Below, one piece after another: positions 24,958-28,308 of a DNA stretch of 28,308 nucleotides; the stretch's first letter is position 1; every line of letters begins with the position of its first letter. The notes under the pieces were generated by a model. That model was not told where the DNA came from, ran no database searches, and worked only from the letters and a program-made list of their open reading frames with translations. The position numbers and the translations under genes were made by a program. This DNA comes from a virus. Its lineage: Duplodnaviria; Heunggongvirae; Uroviricota; Caudoviricetes. Location of the stretch: IMG/VR virus record IMGVR_UViG_3300045988_152359. One strand, written 5' to 3'.

Positions 24958-25540
24958 CTTTATCAATGACTTATCTCCCGACTTCCCGCCTTGCTTTTCC
25001 TAAACAGAACAATCGTAGAATATTCTTGAAGGGTTAGATCGTCACTGTTTTCTGTTCGATACTGTGACATTCAGCACTTGATTCGCTATGGATCTGACAG
25101 GAAGGTTTCGAGCGAAAATCTGCAGTTATTCAGTCGTTTTCTTATCGGTCACCATTATTCTTTTAGACATTGATCCTACAAAGCTGCCGCAAAGTTGGTG
25201 GTGGGAACTGAAGTTGCGTAGAGAAGGGGTCAATACCCGGAGGCAAACATGGGCTGGCAAAAGTGTAGCGGTATTAGGCGCAGCTATTTAGCCTAGTTAT
25301 GTTTTATGAAAACTTGATATCATATAAGTGTCTTACTTATTGGCTGTAAATAAGGTTTTCTAAGGAATTGTTTCTTTAGTATCATTTGTAACTGTAACGG
25401 AATTTATAATCCTTTACTTTATTTTTACGGTATTTTTTATCACACCCTATTTTTTATGTGGTTTTTTATACTGAAGTTTGGCAAAGTGAACTTTATATGC
25501 ATATACTTCATCCTGGTTTCAGTTAAATTGGGTGGATGAT

Positions 25541-26284
25541 ATGGCAACTACATGTTCAGTTATATTGATTTTGGAGTCCTTTGATGTTTATTTCGGAAAA
25601 GAGAGTGTGTTTCTGGATAGAGGTTTATCTGTACTTGTCGACTCTAGCTATAGAGATTTTTTCCTGACATATCCTGAAAGAGTGATAGTGGCGGATTTTG
25701 GCGCTGAGTTTATTAGTCGCTATTTGAAAGCTAATAACTTAAGGGATATTTCTGATTGTAGGGAATATCCATCTTATTTAAAAATAAACTTTGCTGACTT
25801 CAGTTTAATTAAAGGATTAATTAGTTGGGCTAATCACTGTGCTGAATATATAGAAATTTTTGATGAGTCTATTGCTTTTACATGTCTCTCTGCATTTTCT
25901 TCTGAAAAACAATTTGGAGTATTTCTGTTTGGATGTTTGAAAAGCACAGGGGCTAAAGTTAAAACGATTATTCATACGGATTTATCTGCACCATGGCATC
26001 TTAAGGATATATCATCAAGATTATATCTCAGCGAAAGTTTACTAAAGAGGAAATTGAAAGAAGAGGGGGTATCATTCAGTAAGATCATACTTGATGAGAG
26101 GATGCAAATGGCTGAATATTTACTCAGCACTCGTTGTTATCCTATTAGTAAAGTAGCTAAGGTCTGTGGTTATGCCAGTGTCTCATACTTTACTTATGTA
26201 TTTAGACGTTATTTTGGTGTTTCTCCAAGTCAATACTCTCAGAGGAGTTCAGAAAGTAAAATTCTTACTCACCAGGGAATCTAA
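25541..26284 (+). CDS. AraC/XylS-family transcriptional regulator (AppY/YdeO/GadX-like), AT-rich
   Basis: About 247 aa; C-terminal double-HTH WHLKDISSRLYLSESLLKRKLKEEGVSFSKIILDERMQMAEYLL...VAKVCGYASVSYFTYVFRRYFGVSPSQY; visibly AT-rich with a long AT-rich leader. Start taken as ATG 25541 (the track uses GTG 25532). Confidence 0.85.
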   Translation: MATTCSVILILESFDVYFGKESVFLDRGLSVLVDSSYRDFFLTYPERVIVADFGAEFISRYLKANNLRDISDCREYPSYLKINFADFSLIKGLISWANHCAEYIEIFDESIAFTCLSAFSSEKQFGVFLFGCLKSTGAKVKTIIHTDLSAPWHLKDISSRLYLSESLLKRKLKEEGVSFSKIILDERMQMAEYLLSTRCYPISKVAKVCGYASVSYFTYVFRRYFGVSPSQYSQRSSESKILTHQGI

Positions 26285-26290
26285 TCATTG

Positions 26291-26553
26291 TTCTTGCCCC
26301 CTTATTTCCAGACAGGGGGTGTATCTTAAGTTAACGTTACCCGCTGACGTCGATATTCTCGCGGAGAGCGATAACCCAACGCACTGTGCGGATGGTTTTC
26401 ATTGTAATGTTCGATCGCCACTGCAAGATTATGCAATGCCGTTCTTATATTCGGTTTCGGCATGAACGCGATGTAGTCTTCCTTCATCGTTTTCACGAAC
26501 CTTTCTGCCATTCCATTACTCTGAGGACTGCTGATTACCCATGAGGAGTACAA
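26291..26553 (-). mobile_element. IS2-like (IS3-family) insertion sequence remnant: terminal repeat plus 3' end of the transposase gene, truncated
   Basis: Terminal sequence TTGCCCCCTTATTTCCAGACA at 26294-26314 resembles the IS2 inverted repeat; minus-strand ORF 26326..26553 encodes the transposase C-terminus; similarity ends abruptly near 26553. Confidence 0.65.
26326..26553 (-). pseudogene. IS3-family transposase (OrfB/InsD-like), C-terminal fragment
   Basis: 75-aa ORF ...[56 protein letters not shown]...; lacks the upstream catalytic (DDE) region. Confidence 0.7.
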
Positions 26554-26773: not shown

Positions 26774-26819
26774 ATTCGTAATGCGAAGGTCGTAGGTTCG
26801 ACTCCTATTATCGGCACCA
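26774..26819 (+). pseudogene. 3' 46 nt of tRNA-Thr(CGU) - second attachment-site remnant
   Basis: ATTCGTAATGCGAAGGTCGTAGGTTCGACTCCTATTATCGGCACCA: anticodon loop (CGT) through T-arm, acceptor 3' strand and CCA; no 5' half upstream. Confidence 0.75.
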
Positions 26820-27426
26820 TCAAGAAAATCAATAACTTAGCTTAACTTCTCTAAGAAATTGTATCTTCTGTTATCACTTACAAACGCCTATACGTTGTTA
26901 TGGGCTTTGGTAGTGTAACACGTATGGGCGAGTAGTTCCCAGGCTCAACCTCGTAACAAGTTCCTTTGAAGCTGGAAGACGTGCCACCGTCTCTAAACCT
27001 TCTACCAAAACTCTTAGCAAGATGTTCCACACCTGGCGCGGTGTCCAATGATGCTACACGTCGAGATGACGTCGCAGAGGATAAACAGGCTAAATGATGG
27101 GAAGAGTTTTAAGTGCAATAGTGGATTAAAGCCCACCTCTTCAAAACCTAACTTGATCGGGAAAGAATCAAGCTCTAGCACGGTTTCGTCCACCGGAGTA
27201 CAACGGGTGCCTGATAAGAGAAGAACTGCTAAGACTTCATAGCTTTTGTGAAAAAGCCCTTTTTAGTGGATATGCCTACGGCGCTTATTTTTTGGTATAA
27301 CCATCAAAGGCGCTTTATGGCTCCTATTGTCTTGAAAATGTATCTTTACTTGTATTGTGTTTTATGCGTAGTCTCCCTGTGTAGTATGTAACTTGTTAAT
27401 TTTCATATGAATACAGAGGCAACACG

Positions 27427-27537
27427 ATGAAAAACATTGCAGCTATAAAACGTAATAACCGCAAGATTCACGCTCGTAAGTTCCTGTCTACGCCAGAGGG
27501 AAAAGCCTGTCTACGCCAGAGGGAAAAGCCTGGCTAG
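27427..27537 (+). CDS. Small ORF (35 aa as read) disrupted by a 23-bp tandem duplication; inferred ancestral product about 50 aa, basic
   Basis: GAGG RBS 7 nt before ATG 27427; MKNIAAIKRNNRKIHARKFLSTPEGKA...; removing one repeat copy restores ...WLERKQRENEERKLLSELKWLKD, ending at 27602; an imperfect long hairpin and a T-tract follow. Confidence 0.4.
   Translation: MKNIAAIKRNNRKIHARKFLSTPEGKACLRQREKPG
27484..27529 (+). repeat. Perfect 23-bp direct tandem duplication (2 copies)
   Basis: CTGTCTACGCCAGAGGGAAAAGC at 27484-27506 and again at 27507-27529. Confidence 0.95.
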
Positions 27538-27885
27538 AGCGTAAACAGCGAGAGAACGAAGAAAGAAAACTCCTTAGTGAGTTGAAATGGCTTAAGGATT
27601 GAATCACCAGTAGGCGCATAACACATCCAGCAATCAAAGATGTGTTTGTGCGCCTGATAGTGAAATTATTAAAGTTTTTTAGTTAATGTAGCCATTGCAT
27701 GAACGATGATCGCTAGTGAATCGATTTTATCTCGAGGGGTAAAATAGATGAGGTATATGATGGTAACAATTACAGCTAAAGTAATTGTGGTTCTGCAGGT
27801 TTTTAAAATGGATAAGATAAAGCGCATAGATACCCCCTATTGATTTAACAACAACAAGGTATCATTTATTTTTTATTGCATGCAA

Positions 27886-27907
27886 TGTGCAAATTTTCAC
27901 ATATAAT
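27886..27907 (+). promoter_or_regulatory. CRP-like site (TGTGC-N6-TCACA) abutting a consensus -10 hexamer (TATAAT)
   Basis: TGTGCAAATTTTCACA at 27886-27901, then TATAAT at 27902-27907; no obvious downstream gene on the plus strand. Confidence 0.25.
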
Positions 27908-28152
27908 AGCTTACTATTCACTTTGCATGGTGTCAACAAGATGATGTGTTGTTTTGTTTGATTTGTTCAAGATAATATTTCATTTTCTCATCTGTATAAC
28001 TTGTGTTTTAGATAATTTCACTAATTGTAAAAGTTACGTATTGCTTAATAGCTGCCTTTTTATCTGAAATCGGCGCAAACGTGATCAATGTTTAACGCGA
28101 AGATCAGCGGCGTCAGGTCCACGCAGCGACAATTCTCAAATATCAGGAGGAA

Positions 28153-28308
28153 TTACGCTTCCTGCTCTTTCTTGATACGTTGCACCGTCTGTGTGCTGAC
28201 ACTGAAATCTTTTGCTACGCTCCGAATTGATCCACCATTCGCGAGAGCGGCAACAATTCCCGCTCGATCAATTGCTTTTCCATTACCACGTTTTGCTATA
28301 CGTCCAGC
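28153..28308 (-). CDS. Serine recombinase (resolvase/invertase family), C-terminal HTH end; partial - the gene continues beyond the window
   Basis: 52 in-frame codons to a TAA at 28153-28155: ...GRIAKRGNGKAIDRAGIVAALANGGSIRSVAKDFSVSTQTVQRIKKEQEA, matching the G-R-x-x-K plus HTH pattern of resolvase C-terminal domains. Confidence 0.5.
   Translation of the reverse strand, partial: AGRIAKRGNGKAIDRAGIVAALANGGSIRSVAKDFSVSTQTVQRIKKEQEA

What the first reader, a model, noticed from the sequence alone, without database searches (positions are those of the whole stretch)
27427..27602. Small basic ORF with RBS and terminator-like hairpin, frameshifted by a perfect 23-bp tandem duplication
A GAGG RBS precedes ATG 27427. 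The sequence CTGTCTACGCCAGAGGGAAAAGC occurs twice back to back (27484-27529). As read, the ORF stops after 35 codons; deleting one copy restores a 50-codon ORF ending at 27602, followed by a long imperfect hairpin and a T-tract. This is either a recent slippage-type pseudogenisation or a rare duplication/deletion on-off switch of a small regulatory protein in an otherwise ORF-poor AT-rich region.
Basis: seen in the sequence. Interest (0 to 1): 0.45.

Follow-up and report, generated by a model that had tools for sequence, protein, structure and literature searches.

The report
Frameshifted small gene beside unknown RNA
A perfect 23-base tandem duplication has knocked out, in one E. coli-like clone, a real and conserved 50-residue protein gene of unknown function; the mutation is ordinary, but the gene always sits just downstream of a roughly 450-base structured RNA that matches no catalogued RNA family.

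Summary
CTGTCTACGCCAGAGGGAAAAGC occurs twice back to back (27484-27506, 27507-27529). It shifts the frame of an ORF that starts at ATG 27427 behind a GAGG ribosome-binding site. As read, the ORF is 36 codons, not 35.

Removing one copy gives exactly the 50-aa protein WP_000788776.1, annotated as hypothetical in about 479 of 5426 complete E. coli genomes. Relatives of 49-54 aa occur across Enterobacterales and are under strong purifying selection (dN/dS about 0.02-0.2), so the gene is real.

The two-copy allele is absent from all complete E. coli genomes. It occurs on only four near-identical metagenome contigs, against thousands of contigs with intact forms. This fits a recent slippage-type loss-of-function mutation in one clone, primed by the short repeat CCTGtCTA/CCTGgCTA. 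It does not fit an on-off switch.

The predicted protein is a basic helical hairpin, and the frameshift removes helix 2.

The gene is always preceded by a conserved element of about 450 nt (26880-27332) with strong base-pair covariation and no Rfam match. The pair lies next to tRNA-Thr or tRNA-Leu, at the edge of small phage-like integrative elements. The function of the protein and of the RNA is unknown.

The parts
27427..27602 (+). Frameshifted small-protein gene. This is the span of the ancestral 50-codon ORF plus the 23-bp insertion.
   Evidence: Removing one repeat copy gives MKNIAAIKRNNRKIHARKFLSTPEGKAWLERKQRENEERKLLSELKWLKD, identical to WP_000788776.1. dN/dS is 0.02-0.2 across genera.
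27427..27537 (+). The ORF as it now reads: 36 codons plus a stop (MKNIAAIKRNNRKIHARKFLSTPEGKACLRQREKPG).
   Evidence: This product is P0053, seen on 4 contigs.
27416..27419 (+). Shine-Dalgarno GAGG, 7 nt upstream of the ATG.
   Evidence: GGAGG or GAGG sits at the same spacing in the relatives listed.
27484..27506 (+). Copy 1 of the 23-bp unit.
27507..27529 (+). Copy 2 of the 23-bp unit, followed by the partial third copy CCTGgCTA. This is the microhomology that primed the slippage.
27498..27504 (+). G GGA AAA, a heptamer of the X XXY YYZ type in phase with the ORF. A -1 ribosomal slip here would enter the frame that encodes the original C-terminus. This is an inferred possibility and is untested.
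   Evidence: Read from the sequence. The heptamer is not conserved in other genera.
27604..27663 (+). Long imperfect hairpin directly after the ancestral stop codon.
   Evidence: -28.8 kcal/mol, z = -5.1. The terminator scan does not call it.
26880..27332 (+). Conserved structured RNA-like element of about 450 nt upstream of the ORF, with no Rfam family match.
   Evidence: Alignments A4 and A7. 57 pairs are 95.6% paired, against 35-40% when partners are slid, and 24 pairs show changes on both sides, against 3-9. The nhmmer match covers 26880-27332. Rfam searches were negative.
26774..26819 (+). The 3' 46 nt of tRNA-Thr(CGT). This is the attR repeat left by the prophage that fills the window upstream.
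   Evidence: Alignment to intact thrW in L001 and L002. ARAGORN finds no whole tRNA in the window.
28153..28308 (-). 3' end of a serine recombinase (resolvase/invertase) gene, the next gene of the island. It is cut off by the end of the window.
   Evidence: tblastn gives 98% identity over 51 aa to WP_001273868.1. Pfam Resolvase is recorded in L003-L005.

Best explanation
Window 27427-27602 is a recently inactivated allele of a genuine, conserved small-protein gene (50 aa, basic, predicted helix-turn-helix hairpin).

How it arose: in the ancestral sequence the 8-nt imperfect repeat CCTGtCTA / CCTGgCTA lies 23 bp apart. Replication slippage between these repeats duplicated the intervening 23 bp. 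Because 23 is not a multiple of 3, translation leaves the frame after residue 27 and stops after 9 foreign residues. The invariant Trp28, Leu29 and Lys32 and the whole second helix are lost. The allele is therefore most likely a loss-of-function mutation fixed in one clone, not a programmed switch.

What the gene belongs to: it is the second half of a conserved two-part module, a structured RNA of about 450 nt followed by the small ORF. The module lies 60-120 nt downstream of tRNA-Thr(CGT) or tRNA-Leu(CAA). This is the tRNA-proximal edge of small phage-like integrative elements whose tyrosine integrase sits at the far end.

My working guess for function is that the Arg/Lys-rich hairpin binds nucleic acid, most plausibly the neighbouring RNA or the element's early transcript.

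Shown: the duplication, the frameshift, the reality and conservation of the gene, the rarity of the allele, and the covariation in the RNA. Inferred: the slippage mechanism and loss of function. Speculative: RNA binding.
For: - Duplication and frameshift.
- The single-copy allele is the annotated 50-aa CDS directly after thrW in E. coli.
- About 479 of 5426 complete genomes carry the gene, and every row listed spans 156 or 145 bp rather than 179 or 168 (one weak partial match aside), i.e. single copy. A 46-nt junction query finds nothing in any of them.
- The intact 50-aa form is on at least 1000 contigs and the 52-aa forms on more than 2500. The 36-aa form is on 4.
- Those 4 contigs differ by 0-1 base over 3.4-3.9 kb.
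- The family was found in 21 species-level loci, most with an intact 49-52-aa ORF behind a GAGG/GGAGG site and five with degenerate copies, plus 39 of 40 IMG/VR loci, all complete ORFs of 50-54 aa.
- dN/dS is 0.02-0.2 with saturated dS.
- The AlphaFold2 model has pLDDT 88.8, with helices at 4-20 and 23-51.
- Invariant residues W28 and K32 (and L29, invariant in two of three alignments and above 90% in the third) lie beyond the break.
- Microhomology is visible in alignment A1.
- RNA module.
- Position relative to the tRNA.
- Island content and the distal integrase.
Against: - No expression or proteomic data exist for either allele.
- The truncated product keeps the most conserved basic segment (residues 8-27) and could retain partial activity.
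- The in-phase G GGA AAA heptamer could let a small fraction of ribosomes reach the original C-terminal frame.
- The independence of the four metagenome assemblies, and whether they come from different samples, could not be checked.
- Read-level heterogeneity between one and two copies could not be examined.
- Nothing directly links the protein to the RNA except fixed adjacency. Thermodynamic folding of the single RNA sequence is unremarkable (z = -0.89).
Confidence: 0.8

Rival explanations
1. Reversible on-off switch. The 23-bp unit expands and contracts at useful frequency, so that the population toggles expression of the small protein.
For: A perfect tandem duplication can in principle be lost again by the same slippage, restoring the gene exactly (inference). 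The repeat is flanked by a partial third copy.
Against: - The two-copy junction is in 0 of 5426 complete E. coli genomes.
- No 3- or 4-copy products appear among the 57 protein clusters.
- The only carriers are near-identical contigs, i.e. one clone.
- The repeat-prone sequence is not conserved in other genera: the codons differ at synonymous sites.
- Known contingency loci use many copies of 1-9-nt units, not two copies of 23 nt (established knowledge).
Confidence: 0.06
2. The allele is still functional. Either the 36-aa peptide, which retains the conserved basic helix 1, is enough for activity, or a -1 ribosomal slip on G GGA AAA (27498-27504) yields a 58-aa protein with SLSTPEGK duplicated in the inter-helix loop.
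For: Residues 8-27 are the best-conserved part of the family. The heptamer is in the X XXY YYZ phase, and the -1 frame encodes the full original C-terminus. The duplicated residues would fall in the predicted loop between the helices.
Against: - W28, L29, K32 and E38 are invariant or nearly invariant and are lost in the 36-aa form.
- The heptamer is not conserved in relatives (GGGCAAG, GGTAAA).
- No stimulatory structure was sought or found.
- Slippage on X XXA AAA without a stimulator is generally low in E. coli (established knowledge, not tested here).
Confidence: 0.09
3. Sequencing or assembly artefact. The duplication does not exist in the organism.
For: The window is a metagenome contig and the reads were not available.
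Against: The identical junction occurs in three further contigs from other ENA assemblies, with different contig names and lengths. A 46-bp repeat is shorter than the k = 141 implied by two of the contig names, so it lies within single k-mers and is read directly rather than inferred from the assembly graph.
Confidence: 0.03

Closest known systems
WP_000788776.1 / UniRef A0A0B0T5C3 family of uncharacterised 49-54-aa Enterobacterales proteins
   Same: Residues 1-27 are identical, and the DNA after removal of one repeat copy encodes the same protein. The SD and the position after thrW and the RNA element also match.
   Different: The window's copy carries the 23-bp duplication and encodes 36 aa. 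The family itself has no known function and no Pfam, NCBIfam, PHROG or PDB relative.
Slipped-strand (microhomology-primed) tandem duplications that create frameshift pseudogenes
   Same: A perfect head-to-tail copy is bounded by a short direct repeat (CCTGnCTA), its length is not a multiple of three, and it occurs in a single lineage.
   Different: Nothing distinguishes it from the general class. It is an ordinary example.
Phase-variable contingency loci (simple-sequence-repeat switches of Neisseria, Haemophilus, Campylobacter)
   Same: Repeat-number change inside a coding region shifts the frame.
   Different: There are only two copies of a long, 23-nt unit. There is no copy-number polymorphism among relatives, and the repeat-prone sequence is not conserved.
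Rop/Rom of ColE1 plasmids (63-aa helical hairpin that binds RNA loop-loop complexes) and arginine-rich RNA-binding peptides such as lambda N
   Same: It is a small protein with a predicted two-helix hairpin, an Arg/Lys-rich first helix, and a gene next to a structured RNA on a mobile element. This is an analogy only.
   Different: There is no detectable sequence or fold match to any solved structure. RNA binding is untested. Rop is acidic to neutral and acts as a dimer, and neither property was examined here.
Large structured bacterial RNAs on mobile elements or near tRNA genes (GOLLD, ROOL, HEARO/omega RNA, P4 CI RNA)
   Same: The upstream element is long (about 450 nt), has several helices with covariation including a long-range closing helix, and lies on a phage-like element next to a tRNA gene.
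   Different: No Rfam 15 model matches, even at E <= 10. It occurs in a different host group (Enterobacterales) and is always followed by this small ORF.

Membership tests
WP_000788776.1-type small protein family | Conserved core KRNNRKIHARKFL(S/A)TPEGKAWL(E/A)(R/K)K | tested here: inconclusive
   The core is present up to ...EGKA (residue 27). W28 onward is replaced by CLRQREKPG as read, and is restored exactly when one repeat copy is removed.
WP_000788776.1-type small protein family | Length of 49-54 aa with a strong SD 5-8 nt upstream | tested here: not met
   The SD is present (GAGG, 7 nt upstream), but the ORF is 36 aa as read. It is 50 aa after reconstruction. The locus is therefore a disrupted member, i.e. 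a pseudogene allele.
WP_000788776.1-type small protein family | Location 280-345 nt downstream of the motif ATAAACAGGCnnAATGnTGGGAAGA of the conserved RNA element | tested here: met
   The motif is at 27081 and the ATG at 27427. The arrangement is the same in 39 of 40 motif-selected loci.
Phase-variable contingency locus | Copy-number polymorphism of the repeat among close relatives | tested here: not met
   The two-copy junction is in 0 of 5426 complete genomes. Only a one-copy form and a single two-copy clone are seen.
Phase-variable contingency locus | High-frequency reversible switching within a population | not testable with these tools
   This needs raw reads or a fluctuation assay.
Intrinsic (Rho-independent) terminator | G+C-rich stem followed within 0-2 nt by a U-tract | tested here: not met
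   The stem is strong. The T-run begins 11 nt after the outer stem and 18 nt after the main stem, and the scan does not call the site.
Programmed -1 ribosomal frameshift site | In-phase X XXY YYZ heptamer | tested here: met
   G GGA AAA lies at 27498-27504, with GGA as codon 25 and AAA as codon 26.
Programmed -1 ribosomal frameshift site | Conservation of the heptamer, and a stimulatory element | tested here: not met
   Relatives have GGGCAAG, GGCAAA or GGTAAA at this position. No stimulator was identified.
Any Rfam 15 RNA family (for the upstream element) | Covariance-model score at or near the gathering threshold | tested here: not met
   There are no matches at gathering thresholds. The best E-value match scores 18.7 bits against a cut-off of 80, for a eukaryotic snoRNA model.
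Rop/Rom-like RNA-binding helical hairpin | Two-helix hairpin fold | tested here: met
   The AlphaFold2 model has helices at 4-20 and 23-51, pLDDT 88.8. This is a prediction only.
Rop/Rom-like RNA-binding helical hairpin | Sequence or structural homology to Rop; RNA binding | tested here: not met
   The profile search of PDB sequences gave 0 hits at E <= 10, and the Foldseek PDB search gave 0 hits. Binding is not testable here.

The most novel reading that the evidence does not exclude
The small ORF and the structured RNA of about 450 nt upstream of it form a previously undescribed RNA-protein module. The basic helical hairpin would bind or act through that RNA, controlling the early transcription, immunity or excision of a family of tRNA-integrating phage-like elements in E. 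coli, Klebsiella, Enterobacter and relatives. The 23-bp duplication allele would then be a natural knockout of the protein half.
Probability: 0.25. Interest if true: 0.65.

Novelty: new member of a known kind. Interest (0 to 1): 0.35.

Why it matters
The duplication matters little by itself. It is a textbook slippage frameshift in one clone, useful mainly as a natural null allele.

What it points to is worth more. A small protein gene under strong purifying selection is present in roughly 9% of complete E. coli genomes and in Klebsiella, Enterobacter, Citrobacter, Raoultella, Pantoea and others, and it is everywhere annotated as hypothetical. It is invariably paired with a long, covariation-supported structured RNA that no Rfam model recognises.

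Large structured RNAs of unknown function are rare. Finding one in the best-studied bacterial family, on a mobile element next to tRNA genes, would give RNA biologists and mobile-element researchers a tractable system in genetically easy hosts.

Tried and rejected
Searches that gave nothing:
- Pfam, NCBIfam and PHROGs scans of the 50-aa and 36-aa products gave no significant family. The best was a CSLinker motif at E = 0.12.
- The PDB sequence profile search and the Foldseek PDB search of the model gave no hits.
- An exhaustive profile search of 1.84 billion representatives found only 43 proteins. Nearly all are small, the few long ones match only through short repeated stretches, and none gives a functional clue.
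- The junction 20-mer scan of the JGI metagenome contigs gave one hit, in unrelated sequence.
- INPHARED phages gave no match to the module. The two 'plasmid' hits gave no functional clue; one record is 4.8 Mb, the size of a chromosome.
- Rfam gave nothing, at gathering and at E <= 10.
- Literature searches for the accession, for peptide strings and for thrW-island RNAs found nothing relevant.
- The sigma-70 scan found no promoter for the ORF.

Weaker or conflicting results:
- Single-sequence folding of the RNA was not better than shuffles.
- The ribosum-scored RNAalifold run proposed a local hairpin in place of the long-range helix. I rejected it because its pairs break in the window's sequence, whereas the long-range helix covaries.

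Readings considered and rejected:
- A coding reading of the upstream element: I saw no conserved ORF there, and the indels between lineages are not multiples of three.
- Independent translation of the C-terminal fragment: there is no ATG, GTG or TTG before the last eight codons in that frame.

Full report
**Observation.** The 23-mer CTGTCTACGCCAGAGGGAAAAGC occurs at 27484-27506 and again, without a mismatch, at 27507-27529. Tandem Repeats Finder reports it as period 23, 2.3 copies, score 101, the strongest tandem repeat in the window. The 0.3 extra copy is CCTGgCTA, which resembles the start of the unit (CCTGtCTA). GAGG lies 7 nt upstream of ATG 27427. The frame that carries the original C-terminus is open from 27480 to the TGA at 27600-27602. 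It has no ATG, GTG or TTG before its last eight codons, so that fragment cannot be made on its own.

**The reconstructed ORF is a real gene.** Megablast of 27200-27900 against 5426 complete E. coli genomes gives full-length matches that are 23-25 bp shorter than the query. In the two records I opened, the match is a 153-nt CDS, WP_000788776.1, 'hypothetical protein'. It is the first gene after the tRNA-Thr gene thrW next to proA.
- A three-way alignment shows the window differs from these genomes, across the ORF, only by the extra 23 bp.
- A search of 5.8 billion protein clusters finds 57 relatives, nearly all of 49-61 aa. They come from Escherichia, Shigella, Klebsiella, Enterobacter and Raoultella.
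- A scan of one genome per species adds Citrobacter, Kosakonia, Kluyvera, Scandinavium, Pantoea, Erwinia, Winslowiella, Pluralibacter and Mangrovibacter. Most of these copies start a few bases after GGAGG or GAGG.
- Nei-Gojobori counts over 40 aligned codons give dN/dS of 0.05-0.2. Over the 26-codon core they give 0.02-0.1. Synonymous sites are often saturated. This is the signature of a translated, constrained protein.
- No Pfam, NCBIfam, PHROG or PDB relative exists. An exhaustive profile search of 1.84 billion representatives finds only 43 proteins, nearly all small.

**How common the two-copy allele is.** About 479 complete E. coli genomes carry the gene. Apart from one weak partial match, every row in a spread sample of the ranking spans 156 or 145 bp rather than 179 or 168, i.e. 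one copy.
- A 46-nt query made of the two copies cannot seed on a single-copy allele, because the longest shared word is under 28 nt. It finds nothing in any of the genomes.
- The exact 50-aa protein is on at least 1000 contigs of the large collection, and three 52-aa variants are on 568, at least 1000 and at least 1000. The 36-aa product is on 4.
- Those four are the window and three ENA metagenome contigs. They share the same upstream prophage end and differ from the window by 0, 0 and 1 base over 3.4-3.9 kb.
- None of the sequences retrieved from these clusters corresponds to a three- or four-copy allele.
- All 39 evaluable IMG/VR loci that carry the upstream RNA motif have a complete ORF of 50-54 aa.

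The allele is therefore real, since it was assembled independently several times and the 46-bp repeat is shorter than the assemblers' k-mers. It is also private to one clone.

**Mechanism and consequence.** In the single-copy sequence...GTT CCTGTCTACGCCAGAGGGAAAAG CCTGGCTAGAG..., the words CCTGtCTA and CCTGgCTA start 23 bp apart. Misalignment of the nascent strand between them during replication would produce exactly this duplication. This is an inference from the sequence. Twenty-three is 2 modulo 3, so the frame is lost after Ala27.
- An AlphaFold2 model of the 52-aa E. coli variant, built with a 21-sequence alignment, has mean pLDDT 88.8. It is a two-helix hairpin with helices 4-20 and 23-51 and the turn at Ser/Ala-Thr-Pro.
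- The frameshift keeps helix 1, the Arg/Lys-rich KRNNRKIHARKF segment, and the turn. It removes helix 2 with the invariant or near-invariant W28, L29, K32 and E38. Loss of function is the most likely outcome.
- One caveat comes directly from the sequence. G GGA AAA at 27498-27504 is an in-phase X XXY YYZ heptamer. A -1 slip there enters the frame that encodes the original C-terminus, giving a 58-aa protein with SLSTPEGK repeated in the loop. The heptamer is not conserved in other genera, so this would be incidental leakiness, not a designed feature.

**Surroundings.** The window holds only the last 46 nt of tRNA-Thr(CGT), at 26774-26819.
- Everything upstream is a prophage. The matching records are annotated with tail-fibre and tail-fibre-assembly genes, a Pin-type invertase, a GIY-YIG protein and an AraC regulator, and an IS3-type fragment follows.
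- So a phage has integrated into thrW, and 26774-26819 is its attR. The small ORF belongs to an older resident of the same site.
- In E. coli that resident is an element of about 12.5 kb with the following order: thrW, the conserved non-coding element, the small ORF, and a serine recombinase on the other strand. These are followed by a dozen small genes, an O-like replication initiator, a weak major-head-protein match, a tape-measure protein, a Dit-like tail protein and, at the far end and pointing inward, a tyrosine integrase with a DUF6538 N-terminus. The same order is seen in L034 and L044.
- In other genera the cargo differs or is reduced. In Enterobacter adelaidei ordinary-looking chromosomal genes follow. 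The small ORF is the one island protein recognisable in all these loci.
- The module lies after tRNA-Thr(CGT) in Escherichia, Raoultella, Citrobacter, Enterobacter and Scandinavium. It lies after tRNA-Leu(CAA) in Pantoea, Winslowiella and one E. coli-like contig. It therefore travels with the element rather than with the tRNA.

**The upstream element.** Aligning the tRNA-to-ORF interval across genera shows about 450 nt of strong DNA conservation and no conserved ORF that I could see. Lineage-specific insertions fall where hairpins can be drawn.
- RNAalifold predicts 66 pairs, 28 of them with compensatory double changes.
- On a trimmed 19-sequence alignment, a 57-pair structure is paired in 95.6% of cells, against 35-40% when the 3' partners are slid by 1-3 columns. 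It has 24 pairs with changes on both sides, against 3-9, and a covariation score of 0.264 against 0.04-0.07. Only 0-6 of 500 column shuffles (0 for four of the five measures) reach the observed values.
- Clear examples are CUUGAUC/GAUCAAG against CCGGAUC/GAUCCGG, GUCC/GGGU against GAUC/GAUC against AGCC/GGCU, and ACGUC/GACGU against CCUU/AAGG against GUGCU/AGCAC.
- A long-range helix, UGAUGGG (27095-27101) with CCAUCA (27300-27306), becomes UGUUGGG with CCCAACA in most other genera.
- Frequent G-U pairs on the + strand would be C-A on the other strand. The folded strand is therefore the one shared with the tRNA and the ORF.
- No Rfam 15 family matches, at gathering thresholds or at E <= 10.
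- The motif ATAAACAGGCnnAATGnTGGGAAGA lies 280-345 nt upstream of the ATG in most ORF-selected loci that have enough upstream sequence. Conversely, 39 of 40 motif-selected loci have the ORF.
- In Chryseobacterium-labelled L023 the element is split. In L024 it is absent and the ORF is degenerate.
- Single-sequence folding energy is not unusual (z = -0.89). The case for structure rests on covariation, and the structure was derived from the same alignment. The slid-partner control answers that only in part.

**What it probably does.** Nothing here shows function. I commit to the following order of likelihood.
- The protein is a nucleic-acid-binding helical hairpin encoded by a mobile element. This follows from its basic helix 1, its fold and its context.
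- Its most plausible ligand is the adjacent RNA or the element's early transcript, because the two are never separated. The likely process is control of the element's early genes, immunity or excision.
- After excision, the circle would place the integrase gene and the RNA-ORF pair divergently around attP. This is an inference from the gene order. I put about 0.25 on the RNA-partner idea.
- The hairpin after the stop codon (27604-27663) is strong but lacks an adjacent U-tract, and the sequence after the stop codon differs outside the 50-aa E. coli lineage. It may stabilise or end the transcript, but it is not a canonical terminator.

**Comparison and verdict.** The mutation is an ordinary microhomology-primed tandem duplication producing a frameshift pseudogene. 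It fails the defining tests of a contingency locus. The gene is a disrupted member of an uncharacterised small-protein family. Resemblance to Rop/Rom or to arginine-rich RNA-binding peptides is analogy only. The finding as written deserves a low-to-moderate score. Its main value is that it flags a conserved RNA-plus-small-protein module that appears to be undescribed: it is absent from Rfam, and my limited literature searches found nothing.

Noticed in passing
window 26880-27332 (+): A conserved element of about 450 nt lies between the tRNA remnant and the small ORF. It shows strong base-pair covariation across at least 12 genera, including a long-range helix (27095-27101 with 27300-27306). 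It matches no Rfam 15 family and is always followed by the small ORF. E. coli carries a lineage-specific 42-nt insertion (about 27103-27144) that can itself form a stem (GAAGAG...CUCUUC).
   Followed up: yes
window 26774-26819: These are the last 46 nt of tRNA-Thr(CGT), starting in the anticodon loop, with no 5' half. This is the attR copy left by the prophage that occupies the window upstream, so thrW carries at least two elements in tandem.
   Followed up: partly
window 27293-27316 and the equivalent in other genera (A7 columns 589-612): The 3' strand of the long-range helix (CCCAACA or CCAUCA) can alternatively form a local hairpin: GUGCC-CAACAC-GGCAC in most genera, UGGU-AUA-ACCA in the window. 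The hairpin lies just after a conserved U-rich run (CUUUUCUUAU / UUAUUUUUU). Mutually exclusive pairings next to a U-run are what an attenuator or riboswitch expression platform looks like. This was not analysed further.
   Followed up: no
window 26856-26866 and 27335-27346: Similar words, AAATTGTATCTTC and AAAATGTATCTTT, flank the structured element on both sides. The downstream one is part of a conserved TTGTA-N7-TTGTA-like stretch across genera (A4 columns 733-750). It could be a promoter element or a protein-binding site.
   Followed up: no
L028 31479-44294 (E. coli NZ_CP022912.1); also L034 and L044: The island that owns the small ORF is a 12.5-kb phage-like mini-element. It has an O-like replication initiator, a weak major-head match, a tape-measure protein, a Dit-like tail protein, a serine recombinase and a distal DUF6538-type tyrosine integrase. 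In L028 it is followed in tandem by an island annotated with a second integrase, an Ash-family protein and a DUF927 protein, which looks P4-like. It may be a decayed prophage or a phage satellite.
   Followed up: partly
protein hits P0054, P0013, P0016, P0010, P0045, P0047, P0031, P0027, P0056, P0057: Several other disrupted alleles of the same small gene exist in E. coli and Shigella. Some appear to be frameshifts at the A-runs GGGAAAAG and AGAAAGAAAA, and others have the C-terminus replaced by foreign sequence. Most are singletons, so some may be homopolymer sequencing errors. Together they hint that the gene is dispensable in some lineages.
   Followed up: no
window 27750-28050: This is the most AT-rich stretch near the finding (GC 0.29). 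It lies between the hairpin and the 3' end of the serine recombinase gene and has no ORF over 40 aa. It is identical in L001 and L002 apart from one base.
   Followed up: no
window 26326-26553 (-) and 25532-26284 (+): An IS3-family transposase fragment (rve_3 domain recorded for the matching gene in L004) and an AraC-family regulator sit at the prophage end just before attR. Matching E. coli prophages are annotated with a LEM-3-like GIY-YIG protein, tfaE, ymfQ and pinE.
   Followed up: no
L008 (MAG labelled Bacillota) and L023 (labelled Chryseobacterium): The loci carrying this Enterobacterales module, including L009 (another Bacillota-labelled MAG), sit in genome records labelled as unrelated phyla. 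L008 and L009 encode a product 96% identical to the E. coli protein. This probably reflects contaminated bins or assemblies rather than true hosts.
   Followed up: no
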